Under the pieces are notes generated by a model. It was given only the letters and a program-made list of their open reading frames with translations, was not told the DNA's origin and did no database searches. A stretch of 64,000 nt of DNA from Escherichia coli (GTDB lineage: Bacteria; Pseudomonadota; Gammaproteobacteria; Enterobacterales; Enterobacteriaceae), in NCBI RefSeq assembly GCF_024700885.2, contig NZ_CP117016.1. One strand, written 5' to 3'. How positions within the stretch are numbered: position 1 is the first letter of the stretch; each line of letters opens with the position of its first letter. The position numbers were made by a program, and so were the translations under genes. Below are positions 5,145 through 51,553 of the stretch, piece after piece.

Positions 5145-5178
5145 ACAATTTCATAGTTGACTATTACACAAATTATTT

Positions 5179-6414: not shown

Positions 6415-6574
6415 AGATTAATATTTTTTAACAAAAATGGCTAATCATTACTTGTTAACCATTTAGTAAACTGCAAAAACACGAAATTATCAATTATACA
6501 AAACTTCAAGATTATTAATTAAATAACAAAAAAACGAACATATCTTAACTTTATGAAAAATAAATAATAATATA

Positions 6575-7711: not shown

Positions 7712-7727
7712 AATATATACCTTTTAT

Positions 7728-9101: not shown

Positions 9102-9201
9102 TTTTCCACCATATAATTTTATAAATGCAATAAATATAAGAATCATTAAATATGACACAACATGATATTTAAAATGTTGTGTCATACACAAACAAATAAA
9201 A

Positions 9202-12525: not shown

Positions 12526-12784
12526 TTATAAAACGCTCTCTGAATTTTTTACTTATGATAAACACCACATAATTGTGGTAATATTATATTTAACTAAAAG
12601 TGTGAATATTTATAGTGGAGTTTATAATTCAAATCATGACTTATAGCCTATTATCTTATTTATTTAAATCTGAATCATGTACGCATATAAAAGACAAACG
12701 ATTTATTTTAAAGAAAAAACAAATAAAGGAAATTATAACTTACAGTAATTAGAAGACTATTTAGTCTGATTGTTATATAAAATC

Positions 12785-36740: not shown

Positions 36741-37883
36741 TTAAATCTGCTTTTCATACAATCGGTAACGCTTGTACGGCTCCGCCCCAATGCGTTCCAG
36801 CATGTTATTCATGCCTGTATTGGTTTCGAGGATCCATGACATTTCCAGCGCATCGATCTTCCGGCGGGCAAACGGATCGCGTAAGGCTTCAATCAATAAC
36901 AGCGCAATCACCGGGCCGATGCGGCTAAACTGATACTCGTCCCGCACGCCCATCAGCGGTACTCGCGCAGTTCGCACACCGCTGACTTTTAAACGCCACA
37001 GCAATTTTGCCCAGCCGAAGGGAAAGAGCGATCCGTTCAGATCGGCAATCGCCTCGTTGATGTTTGGCAAGCCGACAATAAACGCGCAGGGTGCAGAATC
37101 AATCTCAGCGATGTAGATCATATCGTCCGGCACCAGATATTTAAGTTGATCGCCCATGGTCGCGAATTCATGTTCGGTAAACGGCACAAATCCCCAGTTG
37201 TGCTGCCAGCCAGAGTTGAAAATCTCACGCAGGATCTGCATCTCTTCGGCAAACCGCTGGCGATTGATGCAGCGAATGGTCACCTTCTTACGCACCTGAT
37301 CCATCAGTTTTTTTAGCGCCGGAGAGAAAGTGAGATCGGTTCGCTGCATCCACCACGCCAGTAAATCAATGCCTTTGTGATAACCCAATTGTTCAATATG
37401 CGCGGCATACCACGGTTTGCCATGTGGCATCATCGCACAGGGTGGTGTGTCAAAACCTTCAATCAGTAATCCGCTTTCCTGATTGATATTCAGGCTGAAA
37501 GGCCCGCTGATCTTACTTGCACCTTGTGACTTCAACCACGCTTCCGCTGCGCCAAACAACGCGGCAAAAACCTGCGGATCATCAATGGCGTCAATCATGC
37601 CGAAATGACCGGTATCTTCGCCGTAACGCTCACGGTGCAAGGTATCGATTTGCGCGGTAATTCGCCCAACTATCTGCCCGGCTTTTTTTGCCACCCACGC
37701 CTGCCAGATGATATGGTCCGTCCCCGGATTCTTCGTAGACAAATGCTCGCTGCGTTCAATGAATAAAGGGGGTATCCAGTTTGGATCATCGGGATAAAGT
37801 GATGACGGAAAAGCGATAAATGCCTTAAGGTCATTTTTATTAATTACTTTTTCAATTTTAATCATCAGCAGATCGCATTCCAT
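36741..37883 (-). CDS. yghO: YghO-family protein, candidate acyl-CoA N-acyltransferase (GNAT-like fold); possible lipid N-acyltransferase
   Basis: About 375-380 aa soluble protein divergent from the lipid operon; family assignment from memory; function inferred from genomic context only. Confidence 0.5.
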   Translation of the reverse strand: MECDLLMIKIEKVINKNDLKAFIAFPSSLYPDDPNWIPPLFIERSEHLSTKNPGTDHIIWQAWVAKKAGQIVGRITAQIDTLHRERYGEDTGHFGMIDAIDDPQVFAALFGAAEAWLKSQGASKISGPFSLNINQESGLLIEGFDTPPCAMMPHGKPWYAAHIEQLGYHKGIDLLAWWMQRTDLTFSPALKKLMDQVRKKVTIRCINRQRFAEEMQILREIFNSGWQHNWGFVPFTEHEFATMGDQLKYLVPDDMIYIAEIDSAPCAFIVGLPNINEAIADLNGSLFPFGWAKLLWRLKVSGVRTARVPLMGVRDEYQFSRIGPVIALLLIEALRDPFARRKIDALEMSWILETNTGMNNMLERIGAEPYKRYRLYEKQI

Positions 37884-38159
37884 ATCTCTGTGGATAACAA
37901 ATAATTAACGGTGACAAACAGATTGCAACAGCAACGAACGGCACCTTAATAATCAACCCAATGAATACAAACGACGAATAAATAGTATTTATTAATGATT
38001 ACGATAAGGTTAGAGACTACACAGAAGCGCCACAATGCCTTTTGTCGATTTAAGGCGACCGGACAAGGCTTCTTCTTAATATATTCACAAATTAAATATC
38101 ATTCACAATAAAAACAAAAAAACTCAAACTCATTATTTAAATCAATGTTCATTTTCACA

Positions 38160-38227
38160 CTGATGAAAATACTATCTCATTTATCTTTTATGCCTATATA
38201 ATCCACCGCATTATTGTCATTTTATTT
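38160..38227 (+). promoter_or_regulatory. Candidate promoter for the lipid-biosynthesis operon in the AT-rich yghO-divergent intergenic region
   Basis: TATAAT hexamer at about 38197-38202, some 25-55 nt upstream of the candidate start codons; AT-rich upstream tract. Confidence 0.3.
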
Positions 38228-39979
38228 TTGATATCCAATTTTTTCGTGGTGTATATGTCTAATAAAATCTTTACGCATTCCCTACCTATGCGCTATGCCG
38301 ATTTTCCAACGCTGGTTGATGCTTTGGACTACGCCGCTCTGAGTAGCGCCGGAATGAATTTTTATGACAGACGTTGCCAACTTGAAGATCAACTGGAATA
38401 TCAGACGTTAAAAGCGCGTGCCGAAGCTGGTGCGAAGCGGTTGTTATCGCTGAACCTGAAAAAAGGCGATCGCGTGGCGCTGATTGCCGAAACCAGTAGC
38501 GGGTTCGTAGAGGCTTTTTTTTCCTGCCAGTATGCCGGCTTAGTCGCCGTCCCGTTGGCGATTCCAATGGGCGTCGGTCAGCGGGATTCCTGGAGCGCCA
38601 AACTGCAGGGTTTACTGGCAAGTTGCCAGCCCGCAGCCATTATCACTGGTGATGAGTGGTTACCGCTGGTCAATGCCGCGACGCATAACAACAACCCCGA
38701 ATTACATGTTTTAAGCCACGCCTGGTTTAAGACATTACCGGAAGCCGATGTTGCGCTCCAGCGTCCAGTTCCGAACGATATCGCCTACCTCCAGTACACT
38801 TCCGGCAGCACCCGTTTTCCCCGTGGCGTCATTATCACCCATCGCGAAGTGATGGCTAATCTACGTGCTATAAGCCACGATGGCATTAAATTACGCCCTG
38901 GCGACCGCTGCGTCTCCTGGCTGCCTTTCTACCATGATATGGGACTGGTCGGCTTTCTCCTGACCCCCGTCGCCACGCAGCTTTCAGTAGATTATTTGCG
39001 CACTCAGGATTTTGCCATGCGTCCTCTGCAATGGCTTAAATTGATCAGTAAAAATCGCGGCACCGTTTCCGTTGCGCCGCCGTTTGGCTATGAATTGTGC
39101 CAGCGCCGCGTGAATGAAAAAGATCTCGCTGAACTGGATCTTTCCTGCTGGCGCGTCGCTGGTATTGGTGCAGAACCCATCTCCGCAGAACAACTCCATC
39201 AATTCGCTGAATGTTTCCGTCAGGTCAACTTTGACGATAAAACTTTCATGCCGTGCTACGGACTGGCAGAAAATGCGCTGGCTGTCAGCTTCTCTGATGA
39301 AGCTTCCGGGGTTGTGGTTAACGAAGTGGATCGCGACATCCTCGAATATCAGGGCAAAGCCGTCGCGCCGGATGCTGAAACACGCGCCGTATCGACTTTC
39401 GTCAACTGCGGTAAAGCGTTGCCGGAACATGGCATTGAAATCCGCAATGAAGCAGGTATGCCGGTCGCGGAACGTGTGGTAGGCCATATTTGCATCTCCG
39501 GCCCCAGCCTGATGAGCGGTTACTTTGGCGACCAGATTTCACAAGACGAGATTGCCGCGACGGGCTGGTTAGACACCGGCGACCTCGGTTATCTGCTGGA
39601 CGGTTATCTGTATGTCACCGGACGCATTAAAGATCTGATTATTATTCGTGGCCGTAATATCTGGCCGCAGGATATTGAATATATTGCGGAACAGGAACCG
39701 GAAATTCATTCTGGCGATGCGATTGCTTTTGTTACCGCCCAGGAAAAAATCATTTTGCAGATCCAGTGTCGGATCAGCGATGAAGAACGTCGCGGGCAGC
39801 TTATCCACGCGCTGGCAGCACGGATCCAAAGCGAATTTGGCGTGACCGCGGCTATCGATCTGTTGCCGCCCCACAGTATTCCCCGAACGTCCTCCGGCAA
39901 GCCTGCCCGTGCGGAAGCGAAAAAACGTTATCAGAAGGCTTATGCTGCAAGCCTTCATGTGCAGGAATCCCTGGCATGA
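38228..39979 (+). CDS. Fatty acyl-AMP ligase / acyl-ACP synthetase (adenylate-forming enzyme)
   Basis: About 575-583 aa; AMP-binding signature LQYTSGSTRFPRGV; C-terminal lysine region; the true start may be the ATG at 38255. Confidence 0.8.
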   Translation: MISNFFVVYMSNKIFTHSLPMRYADFPTLVDALDYAALSSAGMNFYDRRCQLEDQLEYQTLKARAEAGAKRLLSLNLKKGDRVALIAETSSGFVEAFFSCQYAGLVAVPLAIPMGVGQRDSWSAKLQGLLASCQPAAIITGDEWLPLVNAATHNNNPELHVLSHAWFKTLPEADVALQRPVPNDIAYLQYTSGSTRFPRGVIITHREVMANLRAISHDGIKLRPGDRCVSWLPFYHDMGLVGFLLTPVATQLSVDYLRTQDFAMRPLQWLKLISKNRGTVSVAPPFGYELCQRRVNEKDLAELDLSCWRVAGIGAEPISAEQLHQFAECFRQVNFDDKTFMPCYGLAENALAVSFSDEASGVVVNEVDRDILEYQGKAVAPDAETRAVSTFVNCGKALPEHGIEIRNEAGMPVAERVVGHICISGPSLMSGYFGDQISQDEIAATGWLDTGDLGYLLDGYLYVTGRIKDLIIIRGRNIWPQDIEYIAEQEPEIHSGDAIAFVTAQEKIILQIQCRISDEERRGQLIHALAARIQSEFGVTAAIDLLPPHSIPRTSSGKPARAEAKKRYQKAYAASLHVQESLA

Positions 39980-40890
39980 ATCAAACTGTCGCGGTGACGG
40001 GCGCTACCGGGTTTATCGGTAAATATATTATCGATAACCTGCTCGCCCGCGGCTTTCACGTTCGCGCATTGACGCGTACTGCCCGCGCTCACGTCAATGA
40101 CAATCTCATCTGGGTGCGCGGTTCTCTGGAAGATACTCATTCACTTAGCGAACTGGTTGCCGGAGCCAGCGCGGTGGTCCATTGCGCCGGACAAGTGCGC
40201 GGGCACAAAGAAGAGATTTTTACCCGCTGTAACGTTGACGGCAGCCTGCGACTGATGCAAGCGGCAAAAGAGAGCGGCTTTTGCCAACGTTTTCTGTTTA
40301 TCTCTTCGCTGGCGGCGCGCCATCCCGAACTCTCCTGGTACGCAAATTCCAAACACGTCGCCGAACAACGGCTGACCGCAATGGCTGACGAAATTACGCT
40401 GGGCATTTTTCGCCCGACAGCCGTGTATGGTCCCGGCGATAAAGAGTTAAAACCGCTGTTTGACTGGATGCTGCGCGGCCTACTGCCACGACTTGGTGCG
40501 CCAGATACACAGCTCTCTTTCCTGCACGTCACCGATTTCGCGCAAGCCGTGGGGCAGTGGTTAAGCGCCGAAACTGTACAGACGCAAACCTATGAATTAT
40601 GCGATGGCGTCGCCGGCGGCTATGACTGGCAACGCGTAAGACAGCTTGCCGCCGACGCCCGTTGCGGTTCCGTTCGAATGGTTGGTATTCCTCTGTCGGT
40701 ACTCACCTGCCTTGCGGATATCAGTACTGCGTTGAGTCGCCTGGCAGGTAAAGAACCTATGCTGACCCGCTCGAAAATTCGTGAATTAACCCACGCCGAC
40801 TGGTCGGCAAATAATAACCGTATTTCTGAAGATATTAATTGGTTTCCCGGGATTAGCCTGGAACACGCATTACGCAACGGGCTATTTTGA
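39976..40890 (+). CDS. NAD(P)-dependent epimerase/dehydratase-family reductase (extended SDR), candidate 3-keto reductase
   Basis: 304 aa; Rossmann motif VTGATGFIGKYI; YxxxK catalytic motif (YANSK); start overlaps upstream stop (ATGA). Confidence 0.75.
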   Translation: MNQTVAVTGATGFIGKYIIDNLLARGFHVRALTRTARAHVNDNLIWVRGSLEDTHSLSELVAGASAVVHCAGQVRGHKEEIFTRCNVDGSLRLMQAAKESGFCQRFLFISSLAARHPELSWYANSKHVAEQRLTAMADEITLGIFRPTAVYGPGDKELKPLFDWMLRGLLPRLGAPDTQLSFLHVTDFAQAVGQWLSAETVQTQTYELCDGVAGGYDWQRVRQLAADARCGSVRMVGIPLSVLTCLADISTALSRLAGKEPMLTRSKIRELTHADWSANNNRISEDINWFPGISLEHALRNGLF

Positions 40891-40921
40891 TTGTCTTGTT
40901 TAAAGGTGTGTTAACGTTTCT

Positions 40922-41170
40922 ATGGTAAATCGTGAAATAGTAATGGATTACATCCTTTCCTGTTTACAGGATTTGGTCGAAAACGGTGTGGAAATTAAGC
41001 CCGACAGCGATCTCGTCAACGATCTTGGCCTGGAGTCGATCAAAGTGATGGATCTCTTAATGATGCTGGAAGACAGATTCGATATTTCCATTCCTATTAA
41101 TATTCTGCTGGATGTCAAAACCCCTGCGCAATTAATGGAAACACTACTTCCATGGCTGGAGAATAAATAA
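40922..41170 (+). CDS. Dedicated acyl carrier protein
   Basis: 82 aa acidic protein with the phosphopantetheine attachment motif DLGLESIKVMDL. Confidence 0.75.
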   Translation: MVNREIVMDYILSCLQDLVENGVEIKPDSDLVNDLGLESIKVMDLLMMLEDRFDISIPINILLDVKTPAQLMETLLPWLENK

Positions 41171-42342
41171 TGGGGCTATACGATAAATATGCGCGCCTTG
41201 CTGGCGAGCGACTGCAATTTAGTGACAACGGGTTAACACCGTTTGGCACCTGTATTGATGAAGTGTATTCCGCCACCGAAGGTCGGATTGGCAATAAAAA
41301 AGTGATTCTGGCCGGGACCAATAATTATCTCGGTTTAACCTTTAATCATGATGCCATCGCCGAAGGTCAGGCAGCGTTAGCGGCCCAAGGCACCGGCACC
41401 ACCGGTTCTCGTATGGCAAACGGCAGTTATGCGCCGCATCTGGCGTTAGAGAAAGAGATCGCCGAGTTTTTTAATCGCCCTACCGCTATCGTTTTTTCAA
41501 CCGGTTATACCGCTAATTTAGGCGTCATCAGCGCACTTGCCGACCATAACGCCGTGGTGTTACTGGATGCCGACAGCCACGCCAGTATTTATGACGCCTG
41601 TTCTCTCGGTGGCGCGGAAATTATTCGTTTCCGCCATAACGATGCTAAAGATCTGGAACGGCGCATGGTTCGCCTCGGTGAACGGGCAAAAGAGGCGATT
41701 ATCATCGTTGAAGGCATCTACAGTATGCTCGGTGACGTTGCGCCGCTGGCGGAAATTGTTGATATCAAACGTCGTCTCGGTGGTTATTTGATTGTCGATG
41801 AAGCGCATTCGTTTGGCGTGTTAGGCGCAACGGGGCGCGGACTGGCTGAAGCCGTTGGCGTTGAAGATGATGTGGATATTATCGTTGGTACCTTCAGTAA
41901 AAGTCTGGCCTCGATTGGCGGTTTTGCTGTCGGTTCGGAAGCGATGGAAGTGTTGCGCTACGGCAGCCGCCCGTATATTTTTACCGCCTCTCCTTCTCCG
42001 TCCTGCATTGCGACCGTGCGCTCGTCGTTAAGAACCATTGCCTCACAACCAGAGTTGCGGCAAAAGCTGATGGATAATGCCAACCATCTGTATGACGGTC
42101 TGCAAAAACTGGATTATGAGTTAAGTTCACATATTAGCCCGGTAGTGCCAGTAATAATCGGTTCGAAAGAGGAAGGTTTACGCATCTGGCGCGAGCTTAT
42201 TTCGCTGGGCGTTTATGTGAATCTTATCCTGCCACCTGCCGCGCCTGCAGGCATCACGCTGCTGCGCTGTAGCGTAAACGCTGCCCACAGTCGTGAGCAA
42301 ATTGATGCCATCATTCAAGCGTTCGCTACTCTGAAGCAGTAA
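41170..42342 (+). CDS. PLP-dependent alpha-oxoamine synthase (serine palmitoyltransferase / 8-amino-7-oxononanoate synthase family)
   Basis: 390 aa; PLP-lysine motif GTFSKSLASIGGF and DEAHSFG motif typical of the AOS family; start overlaps the ACP stop. Confidence 0.8.
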   Translation: MGLYDKYARLAGERLQFSDNGLTPFGTCIDEVYSATEGRIGNKKVILAGTNNYLGLTFNHDAIAEGQAALAAQGTGTTGSRMANGSYAPHLALEKEIAEFFNRPTAIVFSTGYTANLGVISALADHNAVVLLDADSHASIYDACSLGGAEIIRFRHNDAKDLERRMVRLGERAKEAIIIVEGIYSMLGDVAPLAEIVDIKRRLGGYLIVDEAHSFGVLGATGRGLAEAVGVEDDVDIIVGTFSKSLASIGGFAVGSEAMEVLRYGSRPYIFTASPSPSCIATVRSSLRTIASQPELRQKLMDNANHLYDGLQKLDYELSSHISPVVPVIIGSKEEGLRIWRELISLGVYVNLILPPAAPAGITLLRCSVNAAHSREQIDAIIQAFATLKQ

Positions 42343-42348
42343 TGTGAG

Positions 42349-42378
42349 CCCGCTGTGGTGTTGCGCCACGGCGGGTTT
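42349..42378 (+). terminator. Rho-independent terminator at the end of the + strand biosynthetic operon, overlapping the 3' end of the convergent permease gene
   Basis: GC-rich inverted repeat cccgctgtgg-N7-ccacggcggg followed by TTT. Confidence 0.55.
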
Positions 42379-43456
42379 AATGTTGTCTGTCATACCAATA
42401 CACCAGGCTCAACGCCACCAGCACAAACGCTACCGGTAAACCGAGCGCGGTAACAGGTGCGCTCAACGCAAATAGCAATCCCAGATTGACCATGATTTGA
42501 TAGCTGATCCAGGTAAGTAAGCCCACGATGACGCCTACAGCGAGACGGCTACCCATCCCAGGCGAACGCGGGGCACTAAAGGTAAACGGCACAGCCAGCA
42601 AAATCATCGCCAGGGTCAGGATGGGTTGTCCCAGTTTTTCCCACAGTGCAAGGCGGTATTCGCTGCTGGGTTGCCCAGTTTCCTGCAAATAATGGATGTA
42701 ATGATTAAGTTGACGGACAGAAAAAGTATTTCCCGGCATCGATAACTCTTCAAGATTCATACTGGTGAAGGCCGATTGCCAGGCAAGATTATCTGATGTT
42801 TCCAGCGTTTCTTTGCCATTCAACCATTTTTTATGATTCACACCATGCAGGATCCATGTTTTGTCGTCTTCAATGGAGGCACTGCGTGCAAAAATGTAGG
42901 ATTCGAGCGAGAGATCGTCGCGATAATGAAATATCTCCACGCCCACAGGCTGGCCCTGCTCGTTCAGCGATTTCACCGTCACAAATTCATTACCGCGCCT
43001 GGCCCAAAGCATATTGCCGGTAATGTCATCGTCCTCCCCCAACGCGGTGGCAGTCGATTTGATTTGCAGCGCCTGTTGCTGCAATGGCGACGCCACCCAC
43101 TCATCTATCGCGCCTAACGAAACAGTCCACAATATCCCGGCAACCAGCGCCACCAGTGCAATACGGAAGATAGAAAACCCAGTGCTGCGAATGGCGGTAA
43201 GCTCACTGTTTTTCGATAACTGCCCCAGGCCAACAATCCCTCCCAATAATGCGATAAACGGCGAAAGTTCGACCAGTGTACGCGGTAAGGTCATCAGCAC
43301 CACCAGCACCGCCTGAGTCCAGCGATAACCGCCCGGGCTGACATCATCCAGTTCGTTAATCAGGTTGAAGGTGGTAAAAAGCGGCAGCAATAGCCCTGCG
43401 GCGGCGGCAAAACCGAGAAAGAGATGACGGATTAAATAGCGACTGAAAACATTCAT
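42377..43456 (-). CDS. LptG-like permease (YjgP/YjgQ family) paralogue
   Basis: About 359 aa from MNVFSRYLIRHLF; six-TM permease architecture with a periplasmic domain, as in LptF/LptG; start overlaps the upstream gene stop (ATGA). Confidence 0.7.
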   Translation of the reverse strand: MNVFSRYLIRHLFLGFAAAAGLLLPLFTTFNLINELDDVSPGGYRWTQAVLVVLMTLPRTLVELSPFIALLGGIVGLGQLSKNSELTAIRSTGFSIFRIALVALVAGILWTVSLGAIDEWVASPLQQQALQIKSTATALGEDDDITGNMLWARRGNEFVTVKSLNEQGQPVGVEIFHYRDDLSLESYIFARSASIEDDKTWILHGVNHKKWLNGKETLETSDNLAWQSAFTSMNLEELSMPGNTFSVRQLNHYIHYLQETGQPSSEYRLALWEKLGQPILTLAMILLAVPFTFSAPRSPGMGSRLAVGVIVGLLTWISYQIMVNLGLLFALSAPVTALGLPVAFVLVALSLVYWYDRQH

Positions 43457-44523
43457 CGGGAAAATTTCTGCAGCAAAGAGAAGTCGCGTGCGACCAGCAT
43501 CAGCAGGCCCATTAGCATGAGTCCGGGTACTAACCACAAACCAGGAATGAGGGGAATCGCGCCGTTAGCCACCAGCGTACGGCAGACGTCGCCGCCATAA
43601 AAAATGGCAATAAACAGCAACGTCAGTGGCAATAATGTTGAAAATCGCCCTTGCCGCGGTTTTACCCGACTTAATGAAATGGCCAGCAGCGCCATCAACA
43701 ATGCTGTCAGGCCACGGCTTTGTCGCCATTGCAGTTCGGCATGATCGGCTGGAAAGACGGAGCGCGCCAGCTCCGTGACCGATTTCGCTTTGCGTTTGAC
43801 GTTAGGGCTTTGATCCAGCGGATTCAGATGTAATTGCAGATTACGGTAGATCTGTTCGTTGTCGTCACGCCCCTGATGATCGAGAAGATAGGCAGTGCCG
43901 TTGTGCAACATAACAGTCGGTTTCTCAGGTGATGGGTCAACCACATCAACCGAACGGGCGCGGAAAATGCGGGTTCGATTGGCAGTAGAAGTATAAATCA
44001 GCGCGTCAGTCAGGCGATTATTATCCTGATCAACCGTCTGCGAAAGGATCATTCGTCCGTTATCGTTAGTGTTAAATTTCTTTGCCCGCAACTGGCGAAC
44101 ATCCAGCTCCGACTGTGACTGTTGCTCCAGTTGATAAATCTGCGCATAAGCCCACGGACGACCATACATCGACAGAAGGGTGACAAAAATACTTAGCGGT
44201 ATCGCCAGATAAAGAACGGCTTTGTACAAGCGTCCCGGACTGCCCCCCGCCGCGGAGATAGCGGTAATTTCCGAGTCGGTATACATTTGCCCTAGCGTCA
44301 CGCCAACTGAAGCATATAGTCCAACAGGTAACAGCATCTCCAGTGCAATCAGCACTTTGTAGAAAACGATATCCAGCACAACATCAAGAGCTAATGTCCC
44401 ATTTGCCGCTTCGGTCAGATAACGCTGTGCGGAGTAGCTGGCGAAAATAAAGATCAGAAACCCGACGATAATCAGCACCAGACGGCGCGTACCACGCATG
44501 ATGTAGTGTTCAACCAGCTTCAT
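43453..44523 (-). CDS. LptF-like permease (YjgP/YjgQ family) paralogue
   Basis: 356 aa; N-terminus MKLVEHYIMRGTRRLVLIIVGFLIF resembles LptF/LptG N-termini; paired with the downstream LptG-like gene. Confidence 0.7.
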   Translation of the reverse strand: MKLVEHYIMRGTRRLVLIIVGFLIFIFASYSAQRYLTEAANGTLALDVVLDIVFYKVLIALEMLLPVGLYASVGVTLGQMYTDSEITAISAAGGSPGRLYKAVLYLAIPLSIFVTLLSMYGRPWAYAQIYQLEQQSQSELDVRQLRAKKFNTNDNGRMILSQTVDQDNNRLTDALIYTSTANRTRIFRARSVDVVDPSPEKPTVMLHNGTAYLLDHQGRDDNEQIYRNLQLHLNPLDQSPNVKRKAKSVTELARSVFPADHAELQWRQSRGLTALLMALLAISLSRVKPRQGRFSTLLPLTLLFIAIFYGGDVCRTLVANGAIPLIPGLWLVPGLMLMGLLMLVARDFSLLQKFSR

Positions 44524-44553
44524 CTCGCTAACGCCCTAAATCCTTTGAATTTT

Positions 44554-45117
44554 TTATTCATTGATCAGTTTCTGCGCCAGCGCAATGACATGATCTACCT
44601 CTTCCGGCGTCAGGCTGCCGTCCTTTGCCCACTGAATTTGCCCGTCTTTATTCAGCACCAGAATGGTTGAACTCTGCTCCGGCAACCGCCAGGCAACGCG
44701 TCCCAGTCCATTGCCGTCAATAACGAATTGCGCCCACGGATAGCGGCGTTTATTTTTTTCGATTTTGCCAACGACAAAATAGCCAGTACCAAAGATGGCA
44801 TCATCGGTGTTCACAATGGTGGTGGGCTGAAAACGATCCTGCGGAAAGTTTGCCGCTTCAACCGCTTTAATTAACAGTGAGTTCTTTTTCTTCGCCGACT
44901 TACGCCCGGCGATATACTGAATAATGCGGACTTTTCCCGCCAGCTGTGTGCTGTTCCACTTTTGGTAGTGAATTTCGTCGTCGCTATTCAGAAGCAACTC
45001 ACCGCCTTCCTGGATATAAACAGGGGTAACCGTTTTGCCAGTGACGAAATTGTGTGCCTGCACACCCGGGGCTAAGAGCATGATAATCAGCGCAATAATC
45101 AAACGAGATGACATCAT
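44554..45117 (-). CDS. Periplasmic protein with signal peptide (possibly YtfJ-like family)
   Basis: 187 aa; cleavable signal MMSSRLIIALIIMLLAPGVQA; family assignment tentative. Confidence 0.5.
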   Translation of the reverse strand: MMSSRLIIALIIMLLAPGVQAHNFVTGKTVTPVYIQEGGELLLNSDDEIHYQKWNSTQLAGKVRIIQYIAGRKSAKKKNSLLIKAVEAANFPQDRFQPTTIVNTDDAIFGTGYFVVGKIEKNKRRYPWAQFVIDGNGLGRVAWRLPEQSSTILVLNKDGQIQWAKDGSLTPEEVDHVIALAQKLINE

Positions 45118-45125
45118 TGCTCCGG

Positions 45126-45950
45126 TTATAGCGGAAAACGCGAAATCAGCAGCTCTAAGCGCTGGCGAATATCGCTATCCAGCGCCACCGGTGCATCATA
45201 CGACTGGCGGTTTTCCATATCATCCGCCACCATGTCGTCGTGTTTATCCCCCATCAGGCCATTAATGGCGGCGAGGAAGCGGGAAATCTGTAACGCTTCT
45301 TTATTTTCAGGATCAAGCGATCTTAAGGTGTCGTAATAAGAAACCTGCTGGCTGATGATTTTTCGCACATCATGAAATTCCCTGCCGGTTAGTCGCGGTT
45401 TGGCAATTATCTCTTTCAGGGTATGCATTTGCTTTTGCCGATAGGCAATAAAACCGCTTACGCTTTCTAACTGGCTATGGCGTAATGAATAGTTCACCAA
45501 CGACCAGACCGGAGAGCTTAAATAAACCCGTAACAGGTTGCCGTAATACGACACAATATTTTTCTTACCGTTACGAAAGCCGTCCTGAAAACGCCCCAAA
45601 AAAACGGTCGTTTTGCCGAATAAAAATCCGGCCTGATGCTTCTTTAAATACAGCCGTTGCGCAAAGCGCAGATGCTTGTAGCGCGCTCGCATGTATTTAT
45701 ACTTTTTGCGCTCGTCTGTCGTCAGTTCATCGCCTTTCGCCTGTTTGCGGATTAAACGCAGTAGCTCCTGACGATTAACACCATCCAGCCAGAATTTCAG
45801 GCATAACGCGTAATTATCATGGATGATTTCGGTGGTACAACTTAGTGCGATAGTCGGCGGCAAACTGACCTGTGCATCAACGACATCATCTTCTTCAATC
45901 GCAACAAATAGACGCTCGCTAGCCTCAAGCGGGAAATATTTTCTCATCAT
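45126..45950 (-). CDS. Hypothetical cytoplasmic protein, basic and Lys/Arg-rich
   Basis: 274-aa ORF tightly packed between the flippase gene and the periplasmic protein gene; no motif recognised by eye. Confidence 0.5.
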   Translation of the reverse strand: MMRKYFPLEASERLFVAIEEDDVVDAQVSLPPTIALSCTTEIIHDNYALCLKFWLDGVNRQELLRLIRKQAKGDELTTDERKKYKYMRARYKHLRFAQRLYLKKHQAGFLFGKTTVFLGRFQDGFRNGKKNIVSYYGNLLRVYLSSPVWSLVNYSLRHSQLESVSGFIAYRQKQMHTLKEIIAKPRLTGREFHDVRKIISQQVSYYDTLRSLDPENKEALQISRFLAAINGLMGDKHDDMVADDMENRQSYDAPVALDSDIRQRLELLISRFPL

Positions 45951-47299
45951 CAGGATTTCTCTCCGGCTGCGTTATAAAGCAAGGAATGGCGCTGAAAAAA
46001 TGCCTTTAAGGTTGGAATTAGCGAGAGCACCACATCCAGACATTGCCCAGCGAAGTAAGCAAATGCAGCCCCCAGCACGCCAAACAGATGACAGAACATG
46101 AACAGCAATACGATGTAGCCGATTGAGGCGATGGTTTGCGCCACGAGAAAAGCACGCTGTTTTCCCGCCATCAATAGCAATGACTCCTGTGGGAAGCCCA
46201 GCATTGAAATCACAATTGCGCCTAGCATCACCTGAATCAGGTCATACGCTTCGAGATACTTAACGCCAAACACCAGCGAAATGAGTGGCTTGCCGACGAT
46301 CAACACCACGAGCGCCACCAGAATACCGATTCCGCCCGCCAGTAAACCGGACTTCACGCCTAACAACCACGGCCTGGTGGTGCGCGGATCTAAACGCATC
46401 ACCTCTGGGTAAAAACTTTTACCCAGCAAACCCGCTGGCGTTCCGGCGGCGTCGAAGAATGTCATGGCGATTTTAAATAACCCGGCGGCAGCGGGTCCTA
46501 ACACGATCCCCACCAACACTGTGCTGCACGAGTTACGCGCCGACCAGATGGAGTGGGCAATGTTGGTTGACCAGACAAAACTCCACGCGCCTTTAATGTG
46601 TCGGGCAGACTCAAACAGATTCAATTTGAAGGCGTTATGGATATTTCTGCGGCGTAATTCGCGCGCGGCAAACCACCAGTACATGGTGCCGCCAACCAGA
46701 TTCGATGCGTACCAGGCAATAACAAAACCCGCAAAACCAAAATCAAAATACCAGGCTACGACGCTCCCCGCTGCGCGCAGAAAAGGTTTCGTCGCCTGCT
46801 GTACAGCAATCAAATCGAAGCGATCTACCGCACGCAGAATGCCGGTCGGCGTGGAGGAAGCCATTGAAGGAATGAGCGTGCAATACAGCGCTGCCAGCCA
46901 AAAGCTTTGGTCATCCAGACCTAATGAATGGGAAAGAAAAGGGAGTAAGGCAATGCCGCCGACAATCGCCACCGCGCCGCTGACGATATCCAGCGAGAAG
47001 GAAAATGAGACGACATTGCGGAATTGCTGCGGATTATTGTTGGTTAATGCTGGTGTTCCGTACTGCACCACCAACTGCCATGTCTGAAACTTAATAAAAT
47101 CGCTGATCGACTTGGCGTACGATTGCACAATCACCAGTACGCCAAACATGGCGGGCGTCATCCCTTTACCGGCACACGAGAGCGCCAACAGACCTAGCAA
47201 GGCGCTCACGACATTACTGGAGCCTAACCAGGCGCTATTGCGAATAATGGTGCGAAACGCGCCATCTGCAAACCAATGTTTGATGTTAAAACCCGCCAA
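45950..47299 (-). CDS. yghQ: MOP-superfamily (Wzx-like) polytopic flippase/exporter
   Basis: 449-aa ORF, highly hydrophobic with many predicted TM helices; I recall the K-12 counterpart as yghQ; start codon uncertain. Confidence 0.65.
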   Translation of the reverse strand: MAGFNIKHWFADGAFRTIIRNSAWLGSSNVVSALLGLLALSCAGKGMTPAMFGVLVIVQSYAKSISDFIKFQTWQLVVQYGTPALTNNNPQQFRNVVSFSFSLDIVSGAVAIVGGIALLPFLSHSLGLDDQSFWLAALYCTLIPSMASSTPTGILRAVDRFDLIAVQQATKPFLRAAGSVVAWYFDFGFAGFVIAWYASNLVGGTMYWWFAARELRRRNIHNAFKLNLFESARHIKGAWSFVWSTNIAHSIWSARNSCSTVLVGIVLGPAAAGLFKIAMTFFDAAGTPAGLLGKSFYPEVMRLDPRTTRPWLLGVKSGLLAGGIGILVALVVLIVGKPLISLVFGVKYLEAYDLIQVMLGAIVISMLGFPQESLLLMAGKQRAFLVAQTIASIGYIVLLFMFCHLFGVLGAAFAYFAGQCLDVVLSLIPTLKAFFQRHSLLYNAAGEKS

Positions 47300-47344
47300 T
47301 TCAGCCTGACCTTATCGTTGATAGTAAAAAGTATCCCGCCAGCC

Positions 47345-48103
47345 TTAAGTTAAACTTCGGCGGTCAGAAACGATGGCAACCAGAGAAACCGCCTTCTGTG
47401 CCTGTTCCAGCACTTCGCTGTAGGGCGCTCTGGAATCAATCTCAAGAATTTTTGTGCCGTTATAGCCAATCGTCGACATGACGCCGATTTTGTCCTGCAG
47501 CTCGGCATAGTCATGGTCAGGCTTGCGGGAGATGGCAGTATCAATATCAATCCCCAAACGAATGATTAATTCAGGACGGTATTGCGCCATTTTTTGGTAT
47601 AAACGCCGTTCGCGCTGCGCCAGAAACATGCTGATTTTCCCGGTCGCACGTTCGACGCCGATCCCCGGTCCGTCATAATAAAAGCCCGAAATTTCAGCCT
47701 GCGGGAAGCGATCGCTGACCACCAGAACGCCACTTTGCGCCAGTCGCTGAACCTTGCGTAGATTCGCCATTCTTCGCAGCGAGAAGCAGTACATAATCAC
47801 CGCCGCCCATAGCGCTGGAGATTTGGTTTTCATGCTTTGGGTTTTCGAGGATTTGGCCGCCAGTCGCCGTTCGAGCCAGACGCCAACCAACGGCAATCGT
47901 TTGATTGTGTCGCCGTCTTCGCCCGAGAGCAGCCCCAGATAGCGCCGCTCGGTTTGCCAGTGTTGTTGCAGCGATTTCACCAGGTCGGTGGTCAGTGTGG
48001 ATTTACCGGTGCCATCACACCCGACCACCGCAATCAGCCCCGGAATGTAGTTGGGCTGCGGCACGGTTGTACTATTAACAGTTTGTGTTTGTAGTGCATC
48101 CAT
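47345..48103 (-). CDS. yghR: P-loop NTPase, kinase-like (YghR/S/T family)
   Basis: 252 aa; N-proximal Walker A VVGCDGTGKST; DRF motif; no ABC signature motif seen. Confidence 0.7.
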   Translation of the reverse strand: MDALQTQTVNSTTVPQPNYIPGLIAVVGCDGTGKSTLTTDLVKSLQQHWQTERRYLGLLSGEDGDTIKRLPLVGVWLERRLAAKSSKTQSMKTKSPALWAAVIMYCFSLRRMANLRKVQRLAQSGVLVVSDRFPQAEISGFYYDGPGIGVERATGKISMFLAQRERRLYQKMAQYRPELIIRLGIDIDTAISRKPDHDYAELQDKIGVMSTIGYNGTKILEIDSRAPYSEVLEQAQKAVSLVAIVSDRRSLT

Positions 48104-48134
48104 TCGTTAAATCATCCCCTATCCATTTTGGTGA

Positions 48135-48848
48135 TCAGGAAAGCACGGCGTGAATTGCGCGTAGTGACGCTTGCATAATTTCATCGGCTGGTTGCCGACC
48201 ATCCAGTTCAAGGATCTTTGCGCCATTGAATGTCAGTTGCGGCGTAACGGCGATTTTTTCCTGTAACGCTGCCAGTTGGTGGTCAGGTTTACGCGAAAAC
48301 GCGGTTTGTTCATCAATGCCAAGACGAATCAACAATACGGGCAAATAAGACGCCATCCATTGGTACAGCTTCAGCTCGCGCTGCCTTAACATTTTTATCC
48401 AACCGTTACCGCCCGTGGTTTTTGCCAATTGCGGGCCATCAAAGCGAAAACCCGGCACTTCAACCTGCGGGTAGCGGTCGGTGATGAGCAGATAGCCTTG
48501 CTGGCTTTTACACAACATTTTGCGAAACTTATACGCCCGCCAGCAGGAAAGCAGATAGATAACCAGCGCAGTAATATTGCCAGGCGGTGTTGAGGGCTTT
48601 TCGTGCACATGTGCCGCTTTACTTCGCAGATAACGCCCAAAAGGTGCGCCAATAACAGGGAGCTGTGAAATCCATTCGCCAATTCGCCCGGACGATTGCC
48701 CGAGATAAATGTGTTCTGTTGGCATTCTTGCTGCCAGTTCATTTACCAGGCTTGCCGTGAGGGTCGATTTACCTGAACCATCACATCCTACAATGGCAAT
48801 AACACGCACTGGCGTGGAATTAATTATTGACATATTACGTTGATTCAC
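48135..48848 (-). CDS. yghS: P-loop NTPase, kinase-like (YghR/S/T family paralogue)
   Basis: 237 aa; Walker A IVGCDGSGKST; DRYP motif; same architecture as yghR. Confidence 0.7.
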   Translation of the reverse strand: MNQRNMSIINSTPVRVIAIVGCDGSGKSTLTASLVNELAARMPTEHIYLGQSSGRIGEWISQLPVIGAPFGRYLRSKAAHVHEKPSTPPGNITALVIYLLSCWRAYKFRKMLCKSQQGYLLITDRYPQVEVPGFRFDGPQLAKTTGGNGWIKMLRQRELKLYQWMASYLPVLLIRLGIDEQTAFSRKPDHQLAALQEKIAVTPQLTFNGAKILELDGRQPADEIMQASLRAIHAVLS

Positions 48849-49021
48849 GAAAAACCCGGCAGCAAATAATGTATTGAATATTACGTGGTCCGTGCTCAGA
48901 ATATCCGTTCAACCTTATTGTGACAATGGTTAATTGTGACATTGACCTGAATTACGCTTTCATAAAAACATATTAACCAAATAAATATTTTTAATGGATA
49001 TTCAAATTAAAGGATATATTC

Positions 49022-49714
49022 ATGCAGTCAATAACACCTCCATTAATTGCCGTTATTGGTAGCGATGGTTCAGGCAAGTCAACGGTGTGTGAACATCTCA
49101 TTACCGTTGTCGAAAAATATGGTGCTGCCGAAAGAGTTCATTTAGGAAAACAAGCCGGAAATGTCGGTCGTGCAGTGACAAAATTACCGTTGATGGGAAA
49201 ATCCTTACATAAAACAATTGAACGAAATCAGGTGAAAACAGCAAAAAAATTGCCTGGCCCTGTTCCGGCGCTGGTAATTACAGCGTTTGTCGCCCGTCGC
49301 TTACTGCGCTTTCGTCATATGCTTGCCTGTCGTCGTCGCGGGTTAATTGTTCTAACCGACCGTTATCCTCAGGACCAAATTCCTGGCGCTTACGATGGTA
49401 CAGTGTTCCCACCTAACGTTGAAGGCGGCCGGTTTGTCTCATGGCTGGCAAGCCAGGAACGTAAAGCATTTCACTGGATGGCGAGCCATAAGCCTGATCT
49501 GGTCATCAAACTCAATGTTGACCTTGAAGTTGCCTGCGCGCGTAAACCCGACCATAAACGGGAATCGCTGGCGAGGAAGATTGCAATAACGCCACAGTTA
49601 ACCTTTGGTGGTGCACAACTGGTTGATATCGATGCCAATCAGCCACTGGAAAAGGTGCTGGTTGATGCAGAAAAAGCGATTACGGATTTTATGACCGCGC
49701 GTGGTTATCACTAG
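49022..49714 (+). CDS. yghT: P-loop NTPase, kinase-like (YghR/S/T family paralogue)
   Basis: 230 aa; Walker [16 protein letters not shown] motif; divergent from yghS. Confidence 0.7.
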
Positions 49715-49727
49715 CCAAAAATGGAAA

Positions 49728-49754
49728 TGCCCGATCGCCAGGACCGGGCATTTT
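49728..49754. terminator. Bidirectional stem-loop terminator between convergent yghT and pitB
   Basis: tgcccg-N11-cgggca followed by TTTT on + and by a T-rich tract on -. Confidence 0.5.
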
Positions 49755-49762
49755 CAGGAAGG

Positions 49763-51262
49763 TTAAATCAACTGCAATGCTATCCAGTACAACCCACCAG
49801 ACAGAAAAATCGCCGCTGGTAAAGTAAACACCCACGCCATCAGGATGCTGGTTACCGTTTTACGCTGTAACCCACCGCCGTCCACCACCATCGTCCCTGC
49901 TACCGCAGATGAGAGGACGTGTGTTGTGGAAACAGGCATCCCAATATAACTGGCAAGGCCGATAGATACCGCCGCCGTCATCTGCGCCGCCATCCCTTGC
50001 GCATACGTCATGCCGCGCTTACCAATCTTCTCACCGATGGTCATCGCTACACGACGCCAGCCAATCATGGTGCCAATGCCGAGCGCCAGTGCTACCGCCA
50101 TGATGATCCACACCGGAGCGTACTCAATGGTGCTTAACATATCGCTGCGCAATTTTTTCAGCAGGTTCTGATCTTCTTTACTGACACCTGGCAGTTTCGC
50201 CAGCTTCGCAGAGGTATCAGAGATGCACAGCATAATGCGGCGCAGCTGGCTGCGCTGACTCACGCTTAACGGCTCGTAGCTTTCCATATTACCTGGCAAC
50301 ATCGTTTTAACGCGCGCAATCGCATCAAAGGTATTTGCCGGATGACAATGAAACTCCGTTACTTGCGTGCCATCAGTCGATGCCGCAGGCAATGGAGGTT
50401 CCATCGCAATCAACTTCTGCGGCAGTTCAGGATGCTGTTGCAGATAGTGTTCAAAGTTGGTGACGGCATCGCGAGTACGGGTAATTTCATAGCCGGACGC
50501 ATTCATATTGACGACGAAACCAGCAGGGGCAATCCCCACCAGTACCAACATCACCAGGCCGATCCCTTTCTGCCCGTCGTTCGCGCCGTGCGAAAACGCC
50601 ACGCCCGCAGCGGAAACAATCAGCGCAATACGCGTCCAGAATGGTGGCTTACGTTTGCCTTTTTTCTTTTTGCGATCTTCCGGAATGCGGTGAATACGGT
50701 CACGCTTTTTCGTCCCGCTCCAGTAGCGGCGCAGCAGGAATATCAGGCCTCCCGCAATGACCAGGCCGACGATAGGGGAAACAATCAGCGAGGAGAAAAT
50801 TTTGGTCACTTCACGCAGGTTTAACGCATCCATCACCGATGAGCCGGTTAACAGCGCGTTGGTTAAACCGATGCCGATAATCGCACCAATCAAGGTATGC
50901 GAACTGGAGGCCGGTAAACCAAAGAACCACGTTCCCAGGTTCCAGATAATCGCCGCCAGCAGCATGGAAAAGACCATCGCCAGGCCGTGAGTTGACCCCA
51001 TATTCAGCAACAAATCGGTTGGCAACATATGGACAATGGCATAGGCAACGCTAAGTCCGCCTAGCAATACGCCAAAAAAGTTAAAAAATGCCGCCATCAC
51101 CACGGCAAGCTGTGGCTGCATGGCACGAGTATAAATAACGGTTGCCACCGCATTCGCCGTGTCATGAAAACCATTGATTGCTTCGTAGAACAACACAAAT
51201 GCCAGAGCAAGTAATAACAAAAGCCCTGTGTATATATCAAGGCCAACAAATAAATTTAGCAT
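49763..51262 (-). CDS. pitB: Low-affinity inorganic phosphate transporter (PiT family)
   Basis: 499 aa polytopic PHO4-family transporter; position next to gss. Confidence 0.88.
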
Positions 51263-51503
51263 ATATTAGATTACGCCATTTTGAATTTACGAACGGACGC
51301 ATTATCAGTGACTTTAACGGCGTGGGCAAAGTGAAATATCATTTTTTAACGATAAAAAGAGTGTTATTTCTTGTGTATCAGATAATAAGCATTCATTCAA
51401 AACCTTTAGAAATAATCAAAACACAGGTATTCCACTGGTTAATACATTCACATATGAAATGAATAAATATTGGAATATATAAATATTGAATATTTTGATT
51501 AAT

Positions 51504-51538
51504 CCCTGCACTGATTATTCTTCATAATCAGTGCGGGG
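51504..51538 (-). terminator. Long stem-loop just downstream of the gss stop
   Basis: Near-perfect 15-bp inverted repeat ccctgcactgattat / ataatcagtgcgggg. Confidence 0.5.
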
Positions 51539-51553
51539 TTGCTACAACATGTA

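What the first reader, a model, noticed from the sequence alone, without database searches (positions are those of the whole stretch)
47345..49714. Three tandem P-loop kinase-like paralogues (yghR, yghS, yghT)
Three 230-250 aa proteins share a Walker A of the form G(C/S)DG(T/S)GKST near residue 20 and a DR(F/Y)P motif, resembling small-molecule kinases rather than ABC ATPases. No ABC signature motif is visible. Triplication next to a lipid pathway suggests sequential or substrate-specific phosphorylation (for example lipid or head-group kinases), or ATPase subunits of an unusual transporter.
Basis: partly seen in the sequence, partly recalled or inferred. Interest (0 to 1): 0.65.

Follow-up and report, generated by a model that had tools for sequence, protein, structure and literature searches.

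The report
Three kinase paralogues in E. coli's sphingolipid locus
YghR, YghS and YghT are three ancient thymidylate-kinase-shaped enzymes of unknown substrate that travel with the genes for a bacterial sphingolipid, a lipid flippase and a polyphosphate-binding-type protein, so they most likely add phosphate to that lipid's head group rather than make DNA precursors.

Summary
Three intact ORFs of 252, 237 and 230 aa are clear paralogues (34-42% identity). All three carry G[CS]DG[ST]GKST and DR[FY]PQ. Two are tandem on the minus strand; yghT is divergent.

The triplication is ancient. Three orthogroups recur together in 54 of 78 loci from gamma-, beta- and alphaproteobacteria. All three keep every catalytic-type residue, and natural S-R and T-R fusions exist.

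Forty of those 54 loci have serine palmitoyltransferase within 10 kb. 44 have the MOP-flippase-like YghQ and 43 an unannotated 274-aa protein, which I find has a CHAD (polyphosphate-binding) fold.

yghS-yghR probably head one operon with yghQ, the CHAD-like gene, ytfJ and lptF2/lptG2.

Best reading: a heteromeric or sequential phosphotransferase set that builds an anionic, possibly pyro- or oligophosphate, head group on E. coli's uncharacterised sphingolipid. The closest functional analogue is archaeal PPK3. In K-12 the pathway is broken by an IS5-linked deletion. The substrate is inferred, not shown.

The parts
47345..48103 (-). yghR, 252 aa, TMK-fold P-loop kinase, orthogroup R
   Evidence: ORF. 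RefSeq CDS WP_000339549.1. Motifs. Orthogroup R has 68 members.
48135..48848 (-). yghS, 237 aa (GTG start), TMK-fold P-loop kinase, orthogroup S; first gene of the minus-strand gene string
49022..49714 (+). yghT, 230 aa, TMK-fold P-loop kinase, orthogroup T, divergent from yghS
   Evidence: ORF. 34-36% identical to R and S. Orthogroup T has 62 members.
48849..49021 (.). 173-bp AT-rich divergent intergenic region between yghS and yghT (putative promoters)
   Evidence: Sequence. One sigma-70-like match on the minus strand at 48926-48898. The total number of matches in the scan is not above the shuffled expectation, so this is weak.
45950..47299 (-). yghQ, 449 aa, MOP-flippase-like membrane protein, 45 bp downstream of yghR
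   Evidence: NCBIfam MOP flippase family, E 1e-8, below cut-off. Present in 44 of 54 loci that hold all three kinases. Distant kinase relatives are fused to MOP flippases.
45126..45950 (-). 274-aa 'hypothetical protein', CHAD-fold; its start overlaps the yghQ stop
44554..45117 (-). YtfJ-family protein with an N-terminal hydrophobic stretch that I read as a signal peptide (no predictor was run)
   Evidence: TIGR01626, E 6.5e-64, above cut-off. Hydrophobic N-terminus.
43453..44523 (-). lptF2 (LptF paralogue)
   Evidence: RefSeq annotation. The role of the Caulobacter homologue in sphingolipid transport is described in bioRxiv 10.64898/2026.04.12.717747.
42377..43456 (-). lptG2 (LptG paralogue), last gene of the minus-strand string
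   Evidence: RefSeq annotation. It overlaps lptF2 by 4 bases.
38255..42342 (+). aasR - cerR/epi - acpR - spt: 3-oxosphinganine/ceramide synthesis operon, convergent on lptG2
   Evidence: Annotation. The E. coli BL21 homologues ECD_02851-02854 were studied in PMC9386255 (spt, acpR and aasR assayed; epi assigned by homology). 4067 of 5426 complete E. coli genomes hold at least 80% of it.
36741..37883 (-). yghO, homologue of the bacterial ceramide synthase / N-acyltransferase (aca)
   Evidence: Annotation. PMC9386255 lists yghO ECD_02850 as the aca homologue.
42345..42379 (.). 16-bp-stem hairpin between convergent spt and lptG2 (terminator-like)
49725..49753 (.). 12-bp-stem hairpin between convergent yghT and pitB (terminator-like)

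Best explanation
YghR, YghS and YghT are three non-redundant, catalytically competent phosphotransferases of the thymidylate-kinase superfamily. They are not dTMP kinases. They belong to the head-group and export half of the proteobacterial sphingolipid locus.

Proposed working:
1. The spt operon and YghO make ceramide on the cytoplasmic side.
2. The three soluble, basic kinases use ATP to add phosphate to the lipid head group. They act either as a hetero-oligomer or one after another. Because the fold and the conserved DRx arginine clamp are those of enzymes that transfer phosphate onto a phosphate, a pyro- or oligophosphate product is plausible.
3. The co-conserved CHAD-fold protein binds the phosphate-rich product or chain.
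4. YghQ, a MOP-type flippase, moves the lipid across the inner membrane.
5. LptF2G2, with LptB, extract it towards the outer membrane.

Shown here: paralogy, fold, conservation of catalytic-type residues, three ancient orthogroups, gene neighbourhood, fusions, and the CHAD fold of the neighbour. Inferred: ATP use, the lipid acceptor, the number and kind of phosphates, complex formation, and the operon.
For: - **Not TMK proper.** NCBIfam dTMP kinase scores are 25-31 bits against a cut-off of 83.
- **Three orthogroups.** Groups R (68), S (70) and T (62) emerge from 214 domains. 54 of 78 loci hold all three. All groups keep G21, D23, G24, G26, K27, R104, D124, R125, P127, Q128, D137, E158, R186, K187, D189, H190 and K198 (YghS numbering).
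- **Hetero-fusions.** S-R and T-R fusions occur naturally.
- **Neighbourhood.** The same layout recurs in Enterobacterales, Xanthomonadales, Halomonadaceae and Betaproteobacteria, with the kinase-flippase-CHAD module also in Sphingomonadales and Acetobacteraceae. Of the 54 three-kinase loci, 40 have Spt within 10 kb, 44 have YghQ and 43 have the CHAD-like gene.
- **Wider family.** Distant relatives are fused to MOP flippases or a GT4, or sit between Wzx and Wzy.
- **CHAD fold of the 274-aa neighbour.**. CHAD domains are polyphosphate binders (PMC6537752).
- **Precedent.** In Sulfolobus two dTMPK paralogues, encoded in one operon with a CHAD protein, form polyphosphate kinase PPK3 (PMC12995831).
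- **Physical properties.** YghR, YghS, YghT and the CHAD-like protein have no predicted TM segment and are net basic.
- **Gene layout.** The gaps and overlaps in yghS-yghR-yghQ-CHAD-ytfJ-lptF2-lptG2 are short, and strong hairpins occur only at the two ends.
Against: - No biochemical or lipidomic data exist for these proteins or for an E. coli sphingolipid head group in the literature I could search.
- Sphingomonads and Acetobacteraceae, which also carry the module, are (from my own knowledge, not checked here) known for glyco- rather than phosphosphingolipids. There the module sits with glycosyltransferases, so the acceptor could be a sugar or a soluble precursor.
- About 540 complete E. coli genomes, including K-12, keep intact yghRST without the spt operon. 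This could mean an independent function rather than a remnant.
- Ten loci show only R and S within 10 kb.
- The CHAD assignment rests on a predicted fold only.
- Flipping a highly charged phosphate chain through a MOP flippase is unprecedented.
Confidence: 0.5

Rival explanations
1. A bacterial PPK3-like soluble polyphosphate kinase (or polyP-dependent nucleotide kinase). YghR/S/T form a hetero-oligomer that makes or consumes free inorganic polyphosphate, and the CHAD-like protein binds that polymer. The link to the sphingolipid genes would be indirect, for example phosphate or energy supply, or polyP export.
Against: By profile, canonical TMKs are closer than cPPK3 (E 1e-12 against 6e-6, the latter a P-loop-only stretch). 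No PPX or SixA lies in the E. coli locus. All three paralogues keep the DRx arginine, whereas rPPK3 has lost it (PMC12995831). This reading does not explain the tight linkage to Spt, a MOP flippase and LptF2G2. From my own knowledge, E. coli already has PPK1.
Confidence: 0.15
2. Kinases of soluble head-group precursors. Each paralogue phosphorylates a small metabolite (a sugar, glycerate-like acid, amino alcohol or nucleotide) that is then transferred to the lipid or to a glycan. This would resemble the kinase-plus-nucleotidyltransferase logic of decoration pathways.
For: The wider family occurs in Wzx/Wzy polysaccharide clusters, fused to an N-terminal domain with a weak NTP_transf_5 signal (E 0.11), to a GT4 or to flippases. 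Acetobacteraceae loci hold glycosyltransferases next to the kinases. The TMK/NMP-kinase fold usually acts on soluble substrates.
Against: I recognised no transferase, nucleotidyltransferase or glycosyltransferase in the E. coli locus that could use such a precursor. Three paralogues with identical catalytic residues and hetero-fusions fit a complex better than three separate pathways. A CHAD-fold partner is not expected for this role.
Confidence: 0.2
3. ATPase subunits that energise the neighbouring transporter (LptF2G2 or YghQ).
For: They are co-oriented with, and probably co-transcribed with, yghQ and lptF2/lptG2. The locus encodes no LptB paralogue.
Against: The fold is thymidylate kinase, not ABC, and there is no signature, Q-loop or H-loop. 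Many loci hold the kinases without lptF2/G2. Caulobacter LptF2G2 bind the housekeeping LptB (bioRxiv 10.64898/2026.04.12.717747). From established knowledge, MOP flippases are not ATP-driven.
Confidence: 0.03
4. Ordinary (redundant) dTMP or nucleotide kinases, as the RefSeq product names 'dTMP kinase' imply.
For: RefSeq names. There are weak Pfam Thymidylate_kin and TIGR00041 hits, and the P-loop Asp, DRx and lid Arg are conserved.
Against: Scores of 25-31 bits fall well below the 83.25-bit equivalog cut-off. E. coli's own TMK (4tmk) matches the family profile only at E 1.4e-4. In the profile alignment, leucine stands at the position of the Phe in TMK's 'LLFSANR' segment, which (from my recollection of TMK structures) stacks on thymine, and the 'REPGG' arginine recalled from TMK sequences is absent. 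About 60 extra residues lie between the P-loop helix and DRx. The gene context is lipid and envelope, not nucleotide metabolism.
Confidence: 0.02

Closest known systems
Thymidylate kinase (dTMPK; PF02223 / TIGR00041)
   Different: Scores about one third of the curated cut-off. Has about 60 extra residues in the acceptor-binding half. The invariant blocks YLGxxxG, LPxxG, DRxPQ, DG and RKPDH are absent from the TMK segments aligned. Occurs as three co-conserved paralogues in a lipid/envelope locus. The substrate is unknown.
PPK3, heteromeric polyphosphate kinase of Sulfolobus (cPPK3 Saci_2019 + rPPK3 Saci_2020; PMC12995831)
   Same: Several dTMPK-fold paralogues encoded side by side with a CHAD-type protein. 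A hetero-oligomer is implied (here by S-R and T-R fusions). Phosphate-to-phosphate transfer chemistry.
   Different: No specific sequence affinity: TMKs are closer. There are three subunits rather than two, and none has lost the catalytic Arg. No PPX or SixA neighbours. Linked to spt, a MOP flippase and LptF2G2 instead of polyP catabolism.
CpgB, ceramide kinase of Caulobacter crescentus (PMC10331486)
   Same: A kinase encoded inside a sphingolipid locus that also holds spt and lptF2/G2. It makes the first phosphorylated intermediate of an anionic head group, which is the same position in the pathway that I propose here.
   Different: Unrelated fold: LCB5/DAG-kinase domain with a GGDG motif, against a P-loop TMK fold here. 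Caulobacter's other head-group enzymes (CpgA, CpgC, CpgD) are not among the annotated products of the E. coli locus (I ran no sequence search for them). It is an analogue, not a homologue.
CHAD domain proteins (for the 274-aa neighbour; PMC6537752)
   Different: No Pfam CHAD hit and no sequence hit to any solved CHAD protein. PolyP binding is untested.

Membership tests
dTMP kinase (TIGR00041 / PF02223) | Score above the curated family cut-off | tested here: not met
   31.5, 24.7 and 25.4 bits against a cut-off of 83.25. Pfam Thymidylate_kin E 3e-4 at best.
dTMP kinase (TIGR00041 / PF02223) | TMK fold with P-loop, DRx motif and lid arginine | tested here: met
dTMP kinase (TIGR00041 / PF02223) | dTMP-binding residues (base-stacking Phe, 'REP' Arg) | tested here: inconclusive
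   The profile-to-TMK alignment puts Leu opposite the Phe of TMK 'LLFSANR' and shows no Arg equivalent to 'REP'. No structural superposition of side chains was possible, and the residue roles are from my own recollection.
dTMP kinase (TIGR00041 / PF02223) | dTMP + ATP -> dTDP activity | not testable with these tools
   Needs an enzyme assay or tmk complementation.
PPK3 (heteromeric dTMPK-like polyphosphate kinase) | Adjacent dTMPK-fold paralogues plus a CHAD protein in one operon | tested here: met
   yghS-yghR-yghQ-CHAD-like on one strand. CHAD is assigned by fold only.
PPK3 (heteromeric dTMPK-like polyphosphate kinase) | Membership of the PPK3 clade (closer to cPPK3/rPPK3 than to canonical TMK) | tested here: not met
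   The profile hits TMKs at E 1e-12 but 2plr/5h70 only at 6e-6, over the P-loop stretch.
PPK3 (heteromeric dTMPK-like polyphosphate kinase) | A regulatory subunit that has lost the DRx arginine | tested here: not met
   R125 is 100% conserved in all three orthogroups.
PPK3 (heteromeric dTMPK-like polyphosphate kinase) | PPX / SixA / phosphate-metabolism neighbours | tested here: not met
   None in the E. coli locus. pitB is adjacent in only 10 of 78 loci. One His_Phos_1 gene occurs in the Oecophyllibacter locus.
PPK3 (heteromeric dTMPK-like polyphosphate kinase) | PolyP synthesis, or polyP-dependent ADP phosphorylation | not testable with these tools
   Needs biochemistry.
ABC-transporter ATPase | ABC fold with signature motif, Q-loop and H-loop | tested here: not met
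Bacterial ceramide kinase CpgB (LCB5/DAG-kinase family) | LCB5/DAG-kinase catalytic domain with GGDG motif | tested here: not met
   YghR/S/T are P-loop TMK-fold proteins. CpgB's domain is described in PMC10331486.
CHAD domain (for the 274-aa neighbour) | Two four-helix bundles, CHAD fold | tested here: met
CHAD domain (for the 274-aa neighbour) | Sequence match to Pfam CHAD or to solved CHAD proteins | tested here: not met
   No Pfam hit. No PDB sequence hit with a 39-sequence profile. One UniRef cluster name says 'CHAD domain-containing protein'.
CHAD domain (for the 274-aa neighbour) | Binds polyphosphate through conserved basic residues | not testable with these tools
   Invariant R88, K92, H93, H105, H193, R196 and H237 are suggestive, but their position on the surface could not be inspected.

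The most novel reading that the evidence does not exclude
YghR/S/T, together with the CHAD-fold protein, build a ceramide-anchored pyro-, oligo- or polyphosphate. This would be a new class of membrane lipid, a 'polyphosphosphingolipid'. It would be flipped by the MOP-type YghQ and exported by LptF2G2 to the outer membrane of most E. coli strains and many other proteobacteria. It would be a bacterial, lipid-directed offshoot of the PPK3 principle.
Probability: 0.2. Interest if true: 0.9.

Novelty: new variant of a known kind. Interest (0 to 1): 0.65.

Why it matters
- About three quarters of complete E. coli genomes carry a full sphingolipid locus whose product has, as far as I could find, never been described. 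The model strain K-12 has lost it, which probably explains why yghR, yghS and yghT have stayed 'uncharacterised ATP-binding proteins' for decades.
- Placing the three kinases, a hidden CHAD-fold protein and a flippase in one conserved module gives a concrete, testable route to the head group of that lipid.
- The module is an alternative to Caulobacter's CpgABCD head-group genes.
- An anionic outer-membrane sphingolipid in pathogenic and commensal E. coli would bear on polymyxin binding, envelope robustness and host recognition.
- If the phosphate-chain reading is right, it would also extend the newly found PPK3 principle (TMK paralogues plus CHAD) from archaeal energy storage to bacterial envelope chemistry.

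Tried and rejected
1. **Homology to the Caulobacter ceramide kinase CpgB.** This was my first idea. Rejected: CpgB is an LCB5/DAG-kinase-fold enzyme.
2. **ABC or transporter ATPase.** Rejected on fold and motifs.
3. **Defence system or phage origin.** PADLOC and PHROGs give only P-loop-level hits.
4. **The 274-aa neighbour related to the N-terminal domain of the ~500-aa relatives.** hhalign probability 2.6%. Rejected.
5. **Sequence-level identification of the 274-aa protein.** Pfam, NCBIfam, a PDB profile search and a 5.8-billion-protein search gave nothing beyond 'hypothetical protein'.
6. **Identity of the N-terminal domain of the ~500-aa relatives.** Only NTP_transf_5 at E 0.11 and no PDB hit. 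Left open.
7. **Literature on yghR/S/T function or an E. coli sphingolipid head group.** None found.
8. **Membrane anchoring of the kinases.** No TM segment.
9. **Promoter and terminator scan.** The number of matches does not exceed shuffled controls, so the operon structure rests on gene spacing and on the two strong terminal hairpins.
10. **Side-chain inspection.** Model coordinates could not be read, so no electrostatics or side-chain superposition on TMK or cPPK3 was possible.
Full report
**What is there.** The window is an Escherichia coli chromosome; the 10 kb searched (window 42000-52000) is 100% identical to strain MLI114.
- yghR, 47345-48103, minus strand, 252 aa
- yghS, 48135-48848, minus strand, 237 aa
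- yghT, 49022-49714, plus strand, 230 aa

They are unmistakable paralogues: 42%, 36% and 34% identity, E 1e-63 to 5e-47. All three carry G[CS]DG[ST]GKST, DR[FY]PQ and a third invariant block, RKPDH. Only yghS and yghR are tandem. yghT is divergent from yghS across 173 bp.

**What kind of protein.**
- Sequence libraries give only weak thymidylate-kinase matches. Pfam Thymidylate_kin reaches E 3e-4. NCBIfam dTMP kinase scores 25-31 bits against a cut-off of 83. Everything else is P-loop-only.
- A 78-sequence alignment gave a confident model of YghS, pLDDT 91.2.
- The deeper profile reaches TMKs at E 1e-12 to 1e-8. E. coli's own TMK (4tmk) reaches only 1.4e-4.
- The alignment shows the P-loop, DRx and lid region in register with TMK. 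It puts Leu at the position of a TMK Phe that I recall as the thymine-stacking residue, and there is no 'REP' arginine. About 60 extra residues lie in the acceptor-binding half.
- AFDB holds only uncharacterised relatives, auto-named 'thymidylate kinase', in Sphingobium, Novosphingobium, Zymomonas, Acetobacter, Gluconobacter, Commensalibacter, Azotobacter and Pseudomonas.

So these are members of the dTMPK superfamily but not dTMP kinases by the curated criterion. They have no TM segment and are net basic.

**The surroundings.** The genes sit at the end of a sphingolipid locus.
- Synthesis genes: yghO (bCerS/aca homologue) and aasR-cerR-acpR-spt on the plus strand.
- On the minus strand, in transcription order: yghS, yghR, yghQ (MOP-flippase-like), a 274-aa hypothetical protein, a YtfJ-family protein, lptF2 and lptG2.
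- Gaps within this string are 11-45 bp or overlaps. Strong hairpins occur only at its end (42345-42379) and after yghT (49725-49753). The promoter and terminator counts are not above chance, so the operon is inferred.

The E. coli BL21 Spt, AcpR and AasR were studied experimentally, with epi (cerR) and yghO assigned by homology to the Caulobacter genes, in PMC9386255. LptF2/G2 were linked to sphingolipid export in Caulobacter, and the E. coli UTI89 locus is drawn there (bioRxiv 10.64898/2026.04.12.717747). None of the papers I could search assigns a role to yghQ, yghR, yghS, yghT or the 274-aa gene.

**Distribution within E. coli.** At least 80% of yghRST is present in 4604 of 5426 complete genomes. 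The aasR-spt operon is present in 4067. In K-12 (DH10B) an IS5 element lies between yghO and a truncated yghQ pseudogene, and aasR through the 274-aa gene are missing. There yghRST are remnants of a dismantled pathway. Some strains have lost nearly everything, down to a yghT stub.

**The triplication is ancient.**
- A profile search of 1.84 billion representatives found 2182 relatives.
- A scan of one genome per species returned 78 loci from Enterobacterales, Xanthomonadales, Carnimonas, several Betaproteobacteria, Sphingomonadales, Acetobacteraceae, Myxococcales and others.
- Clustering the 214 kinase domains in the loci held at that point gives three main groups: R 68, S 70 and T 62.
- 54 of the 78 loci hold all three. 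Most show the E. coli arrangement: T divergent, then S and R.
- All three groups keep every catalytic-type residue, including the DRx arginine.
- Natural fusions join different groups: S-R in P0121, T-R in P0030 and P0122. None joins two copies of the same group.

This points to three non-redundant partners, probably in physical contact, rather than recent redundancy.

**Guilt by association.**
- Of the 54 three-kinase loci, 40 have Spt within 10 kb, 44 have YghQ and 43 have the 274-aa gene.
- Among all 78 loci, 29 have LptF2/G2, 32 have YtfJ and only 10 have pitB.
- The module kinases + YghQ + 274-aa gene also stands alone. A Sphingopyxis locus has all three in one row; an Acetobacter locus has the kinases and YghQ but no detectable 274-aa gene.
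- More distant relatives (E about 1e-40) are roughly 500-aa proteins with an unidentified N-terminal domain. They are encoded between a Wzx flippase and GT4/Wzy genes, or are fused to MOP flippases or a GT4.

The family as a whole is therefore tied to flippase-dependent envelope assembly, and the R/S/T subfamily to sphingolipid loci.

**The hidden partner.** The 274-aa protein matches no Pfam or NCBIfam family and no solved-structure sequence, and nearly all of its relatives are named only 'hypothetical protein'.
- Its model is very confident (pLDDT 94.8, all-alpha).
- It has invariant His, Arg and Lys residues.
- CHAD domains are specific polyphosphate binders (PMC6537752).

YghR/S/T are nevertheless not members of that clade:
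- TMKs are closer by profile.
- None of the three has lost the catalytic arginine, as rPPK3 has.
- There is no PPX or SixA in the locus.

The resemblance is one of working principle, not of membership.

**Most likely mechanism (inference).** The three soluble kinases act as a hetero-oligomer or in sequence. They use ATP to phosphorylate the head group of the ceramide made next door. The fold and the conserved arginine clamp are those of phosphate-to-phosphate transfer, and the partner has a phosphate-chain-binding fold. MOP flippases normally carry pyrophosphate-linked lipids (established knowledge). A pyro- or oligophosphate head group is therefore plausible. YghQ would flip the lipid, and LptF2G2 with LptB would export it.

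I put 0.5 on the general claim (head-group phosphotransferases of the sphingolipid pathway) and about 0.2 on the specific phosphate-chain product.

**Rivals.**
- A soluble PPK3-like polyP enzyme (0.15).
- Kinases of soluble head-group precursors (0.2). This is favoured by the glycosyltransferase-rich contexts in Acetobacteraceae and the polysaccharide contexts of distant relatives.
- Transporter ATPases (0.03).
- True dTMP kinases (0.02).

**Points against the best reading.** There are no experimental data. By my own knowledge, sphingomonads and acetic acid bacteria are known for glyco- rather than phosphosphingolipids. About 540 spt-less E. coli genomes keep intact yghRST. Ten loci show only R and S within 10 kb. 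The CHAD assignment rests on a predicted fold alone.

**Verdict.** The proteins are known by name but not by function. The new elements are:
- their assignment to a conserved kinase / CHAD-fold / flippase module of the sphingolipid locus,
- the antiquity of the triplet,
- the hetero-fusions,
- the parallel with PPK3.

I rate it a new variant of a known kind, with interest 0.65.

Noticed in passing
window 45126-45950 (-): A 274-aa 'hypothetical protein' with no sequence-family match has a confidently predicted CHAD (polyphosphate-binding) fold. It is co-conserved with the three kinases in 43 of 54 loci.
   Followed up: yes
L084 (E. coli DH10B) 2761-4955; corresponds to window ~37900-47300: In K-12 an IS5 element sits between yghO and a truncated yghQ pseudogene. 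aasR, cerR, acpR, spt, lptG2, lptF2, ytfJ-like and the CHAD-like gene are all missing, so yghR/S/T are remnants there.
   Followed up: yes
L085 (E. coli LZHX12) 5996-6172: Some E. coli strains carry a larger deletion. It leaves only a 3' stub of yghT fused next to a truncated gspL, so the whole region from the T2SS genes to yghT is lost.
   Followed up: partly
P0163, P0168, P0172 (about 500 aa); L003 7223-8731: Distant relatives carry an unidentified N-terminal domain of about 260 aa (motif HWKSN...G.TDLDLLV; Pfam NTP_transf_5 only at E 0.11). They are encoded between a Wzx flippase and a second small P-loop protein, a GT4 and Wzy. Other relatives are fused to MOP flippases (P0216, P0268) or a GT4 (P0255).
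   Followed up: partly
L038 18016-19713 and L039 18052-19841 (Luteibacter): Two tandem copies of the CHAD-like gene lie next to YghQ.
   Followed up: no
L061 (Myxococcales MAG) 4888-12966: This locus has four kinase paralogues around a YghQ-like gene, plus a single 760-aa ORF that matches both LptF2 and LptG2 (apparently fused).
   Followed up: no
L086 3105-4543: In a metagenomic contig a distant kinase relative directly follows a PEMT (phospholipid methyltransferase) gene and a Polysacc_synt-like gene. This is another lipid-modifying context.
   Followed up: no
L002 17706-18488 (Oecophyllibacter): A His_Phos_1 phosphatase gene lies next to the YghQ homologue, in a locus with a T-R fused kinase, a CHAD-like gene and several GT4 genes. 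SixA/PhoE-type phosphatases are typical polyP-operon neighbours according to PMC12995831.
   Followed up: no
window 42345-42379 and 49725-49753: Two long perfect hairpins sit between convergent gene pairs (spt/lptG2 and yghT/pitB). They look like bidirectional terminators that delimit the module.
   Followed up: partly
P0047: A partial S-R fusion-like protein is labelled 'Lasius niger' (an ant). It is most likely bacterial contamination or a symbiont sequence in a eukaryotic assembly.
   Followed up: no
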